Assembly: GCF_050920415.1 (NCBI RefSeq)
Contig: NZ_CP169309.1
Strand: one strand, 5' to 3'
DNA: 64,000 nt
Origin: Escherichia coli
GTDB taxonomy: Bacteria > Pseudomonadota > Gammaproteobacteria > Enterobacterales > Enterobacteriaceae
Part shown: piece after piece, positions 51,501 through 54,500 of the stretch
Layout: every line of letters begins with the position of its first letter
Numbering within the stretch: position 1 is the stretch's first letter
Position numbers: made by a program

Positions 51501-54500
51501 AACTGTCGATACGTACAGTATAGGATTTTTATACAGTGCACGGAAGTAGTGACGGTGTAACTCTTTCTCTTAAATTGACGATTAATCCGCCAGTTGAATG
51601 CAAATTCAGATAAAGAACCAGGGGCAGCGTGATAACTGCCCTTGGTTATTAACCGAGAAGGTCTTTTGCGGTGAGTTCTGTCAGCGATGAGAGTTTGACG
51701 TTTGCTAATACAAAACGTGGATCATTTTGCGCTTCTGGCGCAGGAACGACGATGGAACGCATGCGGGCTGCTTTAGAGGCGATCATGCCATTTACCGAAT
51801 CTTCCAGCGCTACGCAGGTCAGTGGGTCAACGCCCAGTTTTGCTGCGCAGTCGAGATATACTTGCGGATGCGGCTTGCTGTAAGGCAATTTTTCAGCCGA
51901 GGCGAGGGCATCGAAACTGTCGCGTAAGTCAAACATGGTCAACACTTTTTCCAGCATATGTAGTGGTGACGCGGAGGCCAGTCCCACCAATAAACCTTGT
52001 TCTTTGCATAACGCAACAGCTTCACGCACGCCTGGCAATAATGGGCGTGTCTCTTCAACCAGTGAAATGGCACGAGCAATAACCCGTTCTACTACTTCCT
52101 GACGGCTTGGACCATTCCAGGGTTGCCGGGCGTACCAAAGATCGACCACCATATCGATGCGTAAACCTAAGGTGTCCGGCAGCTCGTTACGACGGGATAT
52201 ATCCACCCCCAGGCTTGCCATCACATCCAGTTCAGCTCGATCCCATAAAGGTTCTGAGTCGATAAGTAATCCATCCATATCAAAAATTGCAGCAAGAATC
52301 TGACGCGGGGTTGACATTACAACCTCTCCTTTAGAGCATTATGTGTAAGGTATTAAGCCGTGCTTATGATTAAGCGCCTATCATATCGCCTTTAAAGAAT
52401 GGGCGAAAACAGATATCTACAGGTAAACTAAGTGAAACGACGCGTCTTAATCAAGGAGAACTCATGACGTATCAACAAGCTGGACGCATTGCTGTTTTGA
52501 AAAGGATTTTAGGTTGGGTGATTTTTATACCTGCATTGATCTCTACATTGATTTCTTTGCTGAAATTTATGAATACCCGGCAGGAAAACCAGGAAGGCAT
52601 TAATGCGGTCATGCTCGACTTTACTCATGTCATGATCGATATGATGCAGGCGAATACGCCTTTTTTGAATCTGTTCTGGTATAACTCCCCGACGCCCAAT
52701 TTTAATGGTGGCGTGAACGTTATGTTCTGGGTGATTTTCATCCTGATTTTTGTCGGACTAGCGTTGCAGGATTCCGGTGCCCGGATGAGTCGCCAGGCGC
52801 GCTTCTTGCGGGAAGGTGTTGAAGATCAACTCATTCTGGAAAAAGCCAAAGGGGAAGAGGGGCTAACGCGTGAACAAATTGAGTCACGTATTGTTGTGCC
52901 GCACCATACTATTTTCCTGCAGTTTTTCTCGCTGTATATCCTGCCGGTTATTTGTATTGCTGCAGGTTATGTGTTCTTTTCTCTGCTGGGATTTATTTAA
53001 CCAAAAGGCCGCACGGAGCGGCCATTATCCTCACCCCATATTATGCTGCTAATAATCTATCCAGTGACTGCTGAGCAATAACCAAATGCTGACCGCCAAA
53101 TAACCTTGCACGATTTAACAGCGTGTAGAGTTGGTAAACCGGTTGACGTTCAAGGAAATCGGCAGGTAGCGGGGATACTGACTGATAGCCGTCATAGATT
53201 TGTGGCGGCTGTTCAGTATGCAGCGGTAACATCGCCAGGTCGCACTCTCGGTCACCCCAGTAGCAGGCCGGGTCGAAAATGTACGGGCCATCCGGACCCA
53301 GCGCACAGTTGCCGGACCATAAATCGCCGTGCAACAGAGAAGGCTGCGGTTGATGCGAGGCCAGACGCTGCTGAATATGCTCGACGATGGCATCGATATT
53401 GCCGAAAGCGATCCCTTTTTCTGCCGCCAGTTCCAGCTGCCAGCCAATCCGTTGTTCAGCAAAAAAAGTTGACCAGCGACGTTGCCAGGTGTTGGGCTGG
53501 GGAGTTGTGGAGATCGCGTTATCGAAATCGAGGCCAAATTGCGGTTGGTCGCTCCATTGATGTAAACGCGCAATTTGCTGACCAAGAATAAATGCGCTAT
53601 GCGCATCCAGCGGGCGAGGTGGGAGATAATCCATCACCAGAAAACTGTAGTCACGGTCAGCGCCAACTGCCCAAACCTTAGGCACGGTGACGGTTTTACT
53701 ACGCGACAGTAACTCCAGTTGGTCGGCTTCGGCGGTAAAACCGGGAAGCAGTTCCCTTTCATCACATTTGACGAAAAAGTCACGTCCTGCATAGCGCAAA
53801 TGCCATGCGGCATGGACTTCTCCGCCAGGCAGTTCATTACGCAGTTCGATTTCGCCTTCACCTAACTGCTCGCTCAAAAGACGACTGATTGCCTGCCACA
53901 TGATGTCTCTCCCATGTTGTCTGCCAGATCATAAGGTTAGCGCAAGAATGCGGTGTAAAAACACGAGCTAACGCACACCACAGACTGATTATTGCCCAAA
54001 AACCATTTATTTTCTGTTGCTATTCCATTCCTCCCAGGTCGTGATGGTGATTTCAGGATCTTTGCCGGTTGCACTTTGGGTAAGCCCCGAAACCAGTTCT
54101 CTAATTTCTTCTTCACTTTGGGTACTGATAAGTCCAAAAGTGTTAGTCCCCAGCTCATGGATATTTCCATCATCATCCGTCATGGTGAGCAAAAAACCGT
54201 CGCGAGTCAGGTAATTATTCAACTCGTTAATTTCAGTCAATGTATCCTCGTGCAACATGACGGTTATGACATAACGGACAAGATCGCCACTGGCCATAGT
54301 TCACCCCTTTGTTATCACATGACTTTTGAGCATAGTCGGAGAAACGCGTTGCCGACAGGTTGGTGGTGATTCCCCCAATGCAGGGGGAATGTTTCAGTTA
54401 GCGGGAAAGGTAAGCGTAAATTTTTTGTGTATCGTCATGGGAGCACAGGCGTGTTCCCTGATTGAGTGTGGCTGCACTCCCCGCAGCTACGCCAAAACGG

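What the first reader, a model, noticed from the sequence alone, without database searches (positions are those of the whole stretch)
51503..51518. LexA box immediately upstream of ydjM
CTGTCGATACGTACAG is a good CTGT-N8-ACAG match about 17 bp upstream of the ydjM start, with a second degenerate repeat beside it, consistent with SOS regulation of this membrane protein gene.
Basis: partly seen in the sequence, partly recalled or inferred. Interest (0 to 1): 0.2.

Follow-up and report, generated by a model that had tools for sequence, protein, structure and literature searches.

The report
Known tandem LexA boxes at ydjM
This is the already published pair of LexA repressor binding sites just upstream of the E. 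coli membrane-protein gene ydjM, which make the gene switch on after DNA damage; it is real and conserved, but ordinary.

Summary
The window is an E. coli chromosome. CTGTCGATACGTACAG sits at 51503-51518, the core of the 20-mer TACTGTACGTATCGACAGTT (51501-51520, read on the minus strand). That 20-mer ends 14 nt before the ydjM ATG at 51486. It abuts a weaker second 20-mer, CACTGTATAAAAATCCTATA (51519-51538), with a 2-nt overlap. Both are base-for-base identical to K-12 MG1655.

The bare CTGT-N8-ACAG pattern is not significant: 41 of 100 shuffles have at least one match. The support comes from elsewhere:
- With a heterology-index matrix built from 20 LexA boxes verified in MG1655, the two sites and the known cho box are the three best sites in the window.
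- Two such sites within 25 bp of each other never occurred in 500 shuffles.
- The proximal TACTG-N10-ACAG box is kept at the same position in 80 of 80 Enterobacteriaceae species genomes.
- The distal site keeps only its left half (CTGT in 77 of 80; a CAG right half in 0 of 80).

Published work lists ydjM as a classical SOS gene with tandem LexA sites and lexA3-dependent induction. The exact promoter and transcription start were not determined here.

The parts
51501..51520 (.). Proximal (stronger) LexA box. The 20-mer is TACTGTACGTATCGACAGTT read on the minus strand; its 16-bp core, 51503-51518, is the reported finding.
   Evidence: Identical to MG1655. My HI is 10.08, rank 2 in the window; the published HI is 9.0. 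TACTG...ACAG is invariant in 80 of 80 species genomes.
51519..51538 (.). Distal (weaker) LexA box or half-site, CACTGTATAAAAATCCTATA read on the minus strand. It overlaps the proximal 20-mer by 2 nt.
   Evidence: Identical to MG1655. My HI is 10.72, rank 3 in the window. Listed at -52 in PMC4576408. The Salmonella second box lies 32 bp from the ATG with HI 12.85. CTGT is kept in 77 of 80 genomes; a CAG right half is present in 0 of 80.
50896..51486 (-). ydjM coding sequence (196 aa), the regulated gene. It encodes an inner-membrane protein, a putative metal-dependent hydrolase.
   Evidence: RefSeq annotations. Pfam PF04307 YdjM, E 7e-36. The ATG at 51486 is invariant in the alignment, whereas the upstream GTG at 51498 that the ORF listing chose is not conserved.
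51517..51522 (-). Candidate -10 hexamer TATACT at the junction of the two boxes. This is an inference; it has not been mapped.
   Evidence: CCTATACTG is invariant in the 22-genus alignment and in all 80 loci. No promoter passed the consensus scan, so the assignment is tentative.
51549..51563 (-). Conserved upstream block GAGTTACACCGTCAC. GTTACA at 51556-51561 is a possible -35-like element. Its role is unknown.
   Evidence: G100-A105, C107-T109, A111 and C112 are invariant in the 22-genus alignment, even though the upstream gene differs between genera.
51622..51641 (-). Terminator-like hairpin after hxpB (yniC). It implies that ydjM has its own promoter in the roughly 160-nt intergenic region.
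   Evidence: 7-pair stem with 5 GC pairs, followed by a T-rich tail.
51494..51498 (-). Likely ribosome-binding region, GTGAG (GGG or GAG in other genera), 7-11 nt before the ATG.
   Evidence: Read. This is an inference.

Best explanation
This is the LexA operator of the ydjM promoter, a known member of the E. coli SOS regulon.

In undamaged cells, a LexA dimer binds the proximal palindrome TACTGTACGTATCGACAGTT (51501-51520). A second dimer probably binds the adjoining weaker site CACTGTATAAAAATCCTATA (51519-51538). Together they cover positions -52 to -15 relative to the ATG. That is essentially all the space where the core promoter and transcription start can lie, so RNA polymerase is excluded or blocked.

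After DNA damage, RecA bound to single-stranded DNA stimulates LexA self-cleavage. The operator then empties and ydjM is transcribed modestly (2- to 6-fold in published data).

Shown here: sequence, position, rank against a LexA matrix, the tandem arrangement, and conservation. Taken from the literature: LexA binding and lexA-dependent induction. Inferred: occupancy of the distal half-site, possibly helped by the neighbouring dimer as in colicin and recN operators, and the exact overlap with the -10 element and transcription start.
For: Sequence and identity:
- The sequence is at the stated coordinates.
- Both boxes are identical to MG1655 ydjM.

Matrix scoring:
- The HI matrix came from 20 LexA boxes that I verified upstream of their genes in MG1655.
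- It ranks cho, ydjM-proximal and ydjM-distal as the top three sites of the window: 8.44, 10.08 and 10.72.
- A tandem pair of this quality appeared in 0 of 500 shuffles.

Conservation:
- 80 of 80 Enterobacteriaceae species genomes keep TACTG-N10-ACAG, with the 20-mer ending 14 nt from the ATG in 65 of 80.
- There are 23 sequence variants. Nearly all the variation falls on inner bases and on T/G at position 6, which is the degeneracy known LexA sites tolerate.
- 5421 of 5426 complete E. coli genomes carry the 87-nt promoter stretch at 95% identity or better.

Literature:
- Classical SOS gene, HI 9.0, AZT induction 2.5-fold, 8.6-fold dependence on LexA cleavage.
- Ciprofloxacin induction up to log2 fold change 2.6.
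- Tandem sites experimentally reported; the distal site listed at -52.
- Salmonella has two boxes at 14 and 32 bp and 2.1-fold induction by nalidixic acid.
- A YdjM-family gene is also LexA-regulated in S. aureus.
Against: - A single site of this strength is expected by chance in about one in five 64 kb windows, and the bare pattern in 41%. The sequence alone would not prove function.
- The Escherichia proximal box is weak (my HI 10.1, against 6.4 in most other genera), and published induction is modest.
- The distal site never has a CAG right half (0 of 80 genomes) and has lost its left half in two species, so its role as a LexA site is less certain.
- No sigma-70 promoter passed the consensus scan, so the operator-promoter geometry is inferred.
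- I could not read the primary binding paper (Fernandez de Henestrosa 2000) or Courcelle 2001. They are cited second-hand.
Confidence: 0.95

Rival explanations
1. The distal element (51519-51538) is not a LexA site in its own right. It is conserved because it carries core promoter elements: the spacer, the TATAAA or TACTGT sequences, and the invariant TATACT. On this reading only the proximal box binds LexA.
For: - 0 of 80 genomes have a CAG right half.
- The right half, CCTATA, is invariant, which LexA recognition does not require.
- Two species have lost the CTGT left half while keeping the proximal box.
- The published HI for the Salmonella distal site is 12.85, which is weak.
Against: - The left half, (T/C)ACTGTATAAAA, is a near-perfect LexA half-site kept in 77 of 80 genomes.
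- The site ranks 3rd in the window.
- The same 18-bp strong-plus-weak geometry occurs at recN boxes 2 and 3 (coordinates).
- The literature describes the ydjM tandem sites as experimentally reported.
- The two readings are not mutually exclusive.
Confidence: 0.3
2. The palindrome is a chance match with no regulatory role.
For: The bare CTGT-N8-ACAG pattern occurs in 41 of 100 shuffles. A single site with HI <= 10.08 occurs in 22% of shuffles.
Against: - The site is paired in tandem (0 of 500 shuffles).
- It lies 14 nt from a start codon.
- It is invariant in 80 of 80 species while the inner bases vary.
- Induction is published as lexA3-dependent.
Confidence: 0.01
3. A different regulator uses the conserved 90-bp block, for example the invariant GAGTTACA(C/A)CGTCAC upstream element, as the main control of ydjM, and LexA is only a minor input.
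For: - The upstream block is as conserved as the boxes.
- SOS induction is modest.
- The consensus promoter is poor, which could mean an activator is needed.
Against: - No known motif could be assigned.
- Expression after AZT is 8.6-fold dependent on LexA cleavage.
- ydjM co-clusters with core SOS genes across 260 conditions.
Confidence: 0.1

Closest known systems
The published ydjM (b1728) LexA boxes of E. coli K-12 (Fernandez de Henestrosa et al. 2000; Courcelle et al. 2001)
   Same: It is the same locus. Both 20-mers are identical base for base to MG1655, in the same position relative to the ATG. The published HI is 9.0.
   Different: Nothing in the boxes differs. This strain has one rare base change 10 nt upstream of the distal box (window 51548; CACTAC instead of CACCAC). 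Only 5 E. coli records match the 87-nt stretch at 99% or better.
Salmonella enterica ydjM (STM14_1605) tandem SOS boxes
   Same: Two boxes 14 and 32 bp from the ATG, exactly as here, and induced by nalidixic acid.
   Different: The Salmonella subspecies genomes fetched here (diarizonae L046, arizonae L062) carry a proximal box closer to consensus: TACTGTATGAATTGACAGTT, my HI 6.4, against 10.1 in Escherichia.
Strong-plus-weak overlapping LexA operators (recN boxes 2 and 3; colicin promoters; the lexA double operator)
   Same: Two LexA sites lie side by side. recN boxes 2 and 3 in MG1655 start 18 bp apart (L009 3750 and 3768) and share a 2-nt TA overlap, the same geometry as ydjM. [quoted passage not shown]
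   Different: Cooperativity has not been tested for ydjM in anything I could read. The lexA boxes are 21 bp apart and both are full palindromes. The ydjM distal site lacks a CAG half in every species examined.
LexA-regulated YdjM-family gene of Staphylococcus aureus (SAOUHSC_02424 operon)
   Same: The same protein family is under LexA control.
   Different: The LexA motif differs (CGAAAATATGTTCG), the gene is the first of a three-gene operon, and the link is taken from a review and was not tested here.

Membership tests
Gammaproteobacterial LexA (SOS) box | 16-bp imperfect palindrome CTGT-N8-ACAG within the 20-mer consensus TACTGTATATATATACAGTA | tested here: met
   The proximal site is TACTGTACGTATCGACAGTT, with both CTGT and ACAG present. 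The distal site meets only the left half, CTGT...CCTA.
Gammaproteobacterial LexA (SOS) box | Heterology index within the range of functional sites (the literature threshold is about 15 or below; known sites run from about 2 to 13) | tested here: met
   My matrix, built from 20 verified MG1655 boxes, gives 10.08 (proximal) and 10.72 (distal). Training sites span 0.4-9.6 and the held-out cho box scores 8.44. Published values are 9.0 and, for Salmonella, 9.12 and 12.85.
Gammaproteobacterial LexA (SOS) box | Located in the promoter or 5' region of the regulated gene | tested here: met
   The 20-mers end 14 and 32 nt upstream of the ydjM ATG, downstream of the hxpB terminator. The transcription start was not mapped.
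Gammaproteobacterial LexA (SOS) box | Conservation of the site in orthologous promoters | tested here: met
   80 of 80 Enterobacteriaceae species genomes keep the CTG-N10-CAG core. 65 of 80 keep the identical spacing to the ATG.
Gammaproteobacterial LexA (SOS) box | Physical binding of LexA | not testable with these tools
   Literature only: PMC4951493 says the tandem sites were experimentally reported by Fernandez de Henestrosa 2000. The primary paper is not held.
Gammaproteobacterial LexA (SOS) box | DNA-damage induction that depends on LexA cleavage | not testable with these tools
   Literature only: AZT induction 2.5-fold, 8.6-fold lower in lexA3; ciprofloxacin induction; nalidixic acid induction 2.1-fold in Salmonella.
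Tandem cooperative LexA operator (colicin or recN type) | Two LexA sites adjacent or overlapping at their ends, one strong and one weak | tested here: met
   2-nt overlap and 18 bp centre to centre, the same as recN boxes 2 and 3 in MG1655.
Tandem cooperative LexA operator (colicin or recN type) | Cooperative binding of two LexA dimers | not testable with these tools
   No data were found. This needs titration gel shifts with single-box mutants.

The most novel reading that the evidence does not exclude
The distal element is a deliberately incomplete LexA half-site fused to the invariant CCTATACT (-10-like) sequence. Together with the invariant upstream block GAGTTACA(C/A)CGTCAC, it forms a composite control region that carries a second, unidentified regulatory input in addition to LexA. 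Escherichia has then specifically weakened its proximal box (my HI 10.1 against 6.4 in most other genera), loosening SOS control of ydjM in that lineage.
Probability: 0.12. Interest if true: 0.25.

Novelty: already known. Interest (0 to 1): 0.07.

Why it matters
It matters little for discovery. ydjM has been a listed member of the E. coli LexA regulon since 2000, and both boxes are in the literature with these exact sequences.

The value of this check is as a calibration point. It shows the first-stage reader can recognise a true, weak SOS operator from sequence alone. It also shows that the CTGT-N8-ACAG pattern by itself is not statistically meaningful in 64 kb. The tandem arrangement, the position next to a start codon and the conservation are what make the call safe.

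The biological function of YdjM in the SOS response is still unknown. That is the real open question at this locus, and the box does not make it more testable than it already was.

Tried and rejected
- Bare pattern statistics. CTGT-N8-ACAG and CTG-N10-CAG counts against shuffles. The strict pattern is uninformative on its own. The relaxed pattern is enriched (29 matches against 12 expected), but mostly inside genes, so it does not help.
- Consensus 20-mer with up to 3 mismatches. It found nothing in the window; real weak boxes differ from consensus at more positions.
- Consensus sigma-70 scan of 51400-51700. It found no promoter. By eye I considered three options: GTTACA-17-(T/C)ACTGT, TATAAA as the -10, and TTCCGT-17-TATACT. 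I favour TATACT because it is invariant and keeps the three key -10 bases, but none is demonstrated.
- Primary papers. Fernandez de Henestrosa 2000, Courcelle 2001 and Wade 2005 are not held in the library. The exact 20-mer is not found in any searchable full text.
- Rfam scan of 50000-53000. No RNA family matched.
- Shared upstream 12-mer as an SOS-linked motif. GTTACACCGTCA recurs only near cho, inverted and with one mismatch in K-12, and near none of the other SOS boxes checked. I treat it as probable coincidence.
- The GTG at 51498 as the ydjM start, which ORF listing chose. I rejected it because that codon is not conserved across genera while the ATG at 51486 is and because RefSeq annotates the ATG.

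Full report
**What is in the sequence**

The window is an E. coli chromosome. A 1.6 kb stretch around the finding is 100% identical to E. coli strain MFDS1022581 and is present in 5423 of 5426 complete E. coli genomes. RefSeq annotates the genes there as tcyP, ydjM, hxpB, yniB and yniA.

ydjM lies on the minus strand at 50896-51486, with its ATG at 51486. It encodes a 196-aa protein that matches Pfam PF04307 (YdjM inner membrane protein) at E 7e-36. The ORF listing extends the ORF to a GTG at 51498. That codon is not conserved in other genera, whereas the ATG and the preceding G-rich ribosome-binding stretch are, and RefSeq uses the ATG.

The reported sequence CTGTCGATACGTACAG is at 51503-51518, exactly as stated. 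Read in the direction of ydjM, the region is:

gtgCACTGTATAAAAATCCTATACTGTACGTATCGACAGTTtagtgagttttatcATG

It contains two 20-mers of the LexA-box type:
- Proximal: TACTGTACGTATCGACAGTT (51501-51520), ending 14 nt before the ATG.
- Distal: CACTGTATAAAAATCCTATA (51519-51538), ending 32 nt before the ATG.

They overlap by 2 nt, giving 18 bp centre to centre.

**Is it more than chance?**

The bare pattern is not. CTGT-N8-ACAG is expected 0.53 times per window, and 41 of 100 dinucleotide-preserving shuffles contain at least one.

For a proper test I fetched fifteen regions of MG1655. I confirmed that 20 LexA boxes I recalled from the literature sit upstream of their genes: recA, two at lexA, uvrA/ssb, uvrB, uvrD, sulA, umuDC, sbmC, three at recN, ruvAB, dinB, dinD, dinG, dinI, polB, ftsK and yebG. 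From these I built a Lewis-type heterology index (HI) matrix, leaving out the ydjM and cho boxes.

Scanning both strands of the window, the three best sites are:

| Site | Coordinates | My HI |
|---|---|---|
| cho box (known) | 38399-38418 | 8.44 |
| ydjM proximal | 51501-51520 | 10.08 |
| ydjM distal | 51519-51538 | 10.72 |

In 500 shuffles:
- A single site as good as the proximal box appeared in 22% of shuffles.
- Three sites at or below 10.72 appeared in 0.6%.
- Two such sites within 25 bp of each other never appeared.

Significance therefore rests on the tandem arrangement and the location next to a start codon, not on the palindrome alone.

**Conservation**

Both 20-mers are identical in K-12 MG1655. 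The 87-nt promoter stretch is present at 95% identity or better in 5421 of 5426 complete E. coli genomes.

A scan of one genome per species found 212 relatives of YdjM, of which the 80 best were kept. All are Enterobacteriaceae at 85-99% protein identity, spanning Escherichia, Citrobacter, Salmonella, Enterobacter, Kosakonia, Raoultella, Leclercia, Cedecea and others.

Proximal box:
- All 80 have a CTG-N10-CAG core, with TACTG and ACAG invariant.
- In 65 of 80 the 20-mer ends exactly 14 nt from the ATG.
- There are 23 distinct sequence variants. Nearly all the variation falls on inner bases and on T/G at position 6, which is the degeneracy known LexA sites tolerate.

Distal element:
- It keeps CTGT in 77 of 80 genomes.
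- It never has a CAG right half (0 of 80).
- Its right half, CCTATA, is invariant. It is a conserved half-site rather than a decayed palindrome.

The Escherichia proximal box (HI 10.1) is weaker than the version found in most other genera, TACTGTATGAATTGACAGTT (HI 6.4).

The whole block of about 90 bp before the ATG is conserved, even though the gene upstream differs between genera.

**What the literature says**

ydjM is listed among confirmed SOS genes in a 2019 review (PMC6590174). Other sources:

- **PMC11228462 (2024 RNA-seq study).** It tabulates ydjM as a classical SOS gene with a LexA box of HI 9.0. Induction by AZT is 2.5-fold, and expression after AZT is 8.6-fold lower in a non-cleavable lexA3 strain.
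- **PMC11002266.** Ciprofloxacin induces ydjM up to log2 fold change 2.6.
- **PMC4951493.** It states that tandem LexA-binding sites were experimentally reported for E. coli ydjM by Fernandez de Henestrosa et al. 2000. It also notes that colicin genes use a strong and a weak site overlapping at their ends, with cooperative binding.
- **PMC4576408.** It lists the second ydjM site at -52 with exactly the sequence CACTGTATAAAAATCCTATA.
- **PMC8072944.** In Salmonella Typhimurium, ydjM has two SOS boxes 14 and 32 bp from the ATG (HI 9.12 and 12.85) and is induced 2.1-fold by nalidixic acid.
- **PMC11442139.** A YdjM-family gene is also in the S. aureus LexA regulon.

I could not read the primary papers, so the binding evidence is cited second-hand.

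**How it most likely works**

LexA dimers occupy the proximal palindrome and, probably, the adjacent half-site. Together they cover -52 to -15 relative to the ATG. The hxpB terminator-like hairpin at 51622-51641 means ydjM needs its own promoter within the roughly 160-nt intergenic region, and the conserved block leaves little room for it other than over the boxes.

No consensus sigma-70 promoter is detectable. That fits the low expression reported in Salmonella, where a gfp fusion gave no fluorescence.

My preferred -10 is the invariant TATACT (51517-51522) at the junction of the boxes. It would put the proximal box over -10 to about +13 and the distal box over the spacer. This is an inference, and two alternatives are listed under tried and rejected.

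After DNA damage, RecA-stimulated LexA self-cleavage clears the operator. The same 18-bp, 2-nt-overlap geometry is found at recN boxes 2 and 3 in MG1655. This suggests, but does not show, that the weak site is filled with help from the neighbouring dimer.

**Comparison with the known, and verdict**

This is not merely like a LexA box. It is the published ydjM LexA operator, base for base. All sequence-level defining features that I could test are met for the proximal site. The distal site meets them only in part. Binding and lexA-dependent induction are supported by the literature but cannot be tested with these tools.

- Novelty: already known.
- Interest: low.
- Residual open points: whether the distal half-site is a genuine LexA site or mainly a promoter element, where the transcription start lies, what the invariant upstream block does, and what YdjM does in the SOS response.

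Noticed in passing
window 38399-38418: The best LexA-type site in the window, CACTGGATAGATAACCAGCA (minus strand; my HI 8.44), is the known SOS box of cho (ydjQ). The same 20-mer begins 33 nt upstream of the cho start in MG1655 (L002 18483; CDS starts at 18516). It served as a held-out positive control.
   Followed up: yes
window 51549-51563 (minus strand) and 38462-38476 (plus strand): An invariant block, GAGTTACA(C/A)CGTCAC, lies 11 nt upstream of the distal ydjM box in 22 genera. Its 12-mer GTTACACCGTCA recurs, inverted, about 45 nt upstream of the cho LexA box (one mismatch in K-12). It does not occur near any of the other SOS boxes checked. This is probably coincidence, but a rough estimate of the chance of sharing an exact 12-mer between two short intergenic regions is about 0.003, calculated after the fact.
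   Followed up: partly
window 48955-48974 and 49933-49952: Two further LexA-like 20-mers lie inside coding sequence: TACTGAATAACCAACCTGTT (HI 11.3) in ydjO and CACTGTAAACATAATCAGAA (HI 11.7) in tcyP. They rank 4th and 5th in the window. They are likely chance matches; their conservation was not examined.
   Followed up: no
window 51548: This strain reads CACTAC where K-12 and most genera read CACCAC, in a nearly invariant column 10 nt upstream of the distal box. Only 5 of 5421 E. coli records match the 87-nt promoter stretch at 99% or better. The change lies outside both boxes.
   Followed up: partly
L022-L096 upstream of ydjM (alignment A1, columns 1-95): In many non-Escherichia genera the gene upstream of ydjM is not hxpB. 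It is an ORF ending ...GYTLAVDGGWLAR*, which by eye looks like a short-chain dehydrogenase C-terminus. Conservation of the ydjM control region begins right after that stop codon, so the synteny break sits at the edge of the promoter block.
   Followed up: no
L017-L096, proximal box: The Escherichia proximal box (inner bases ACGTATCG; HI 10.1) is the weakest version among the 80 species. Most genera carry ATGAATTG (HI 6.4). This may be a lineage-specific loosening of LexA control.
   Followed up: partly
window 50764-50895: No terminator-like hairpin was found between the ydjM stop and the downstream gene tcyP. Some SOS-induced read-through into tcyP is therefore conceivable. This was not examined further.
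   Followed up: no
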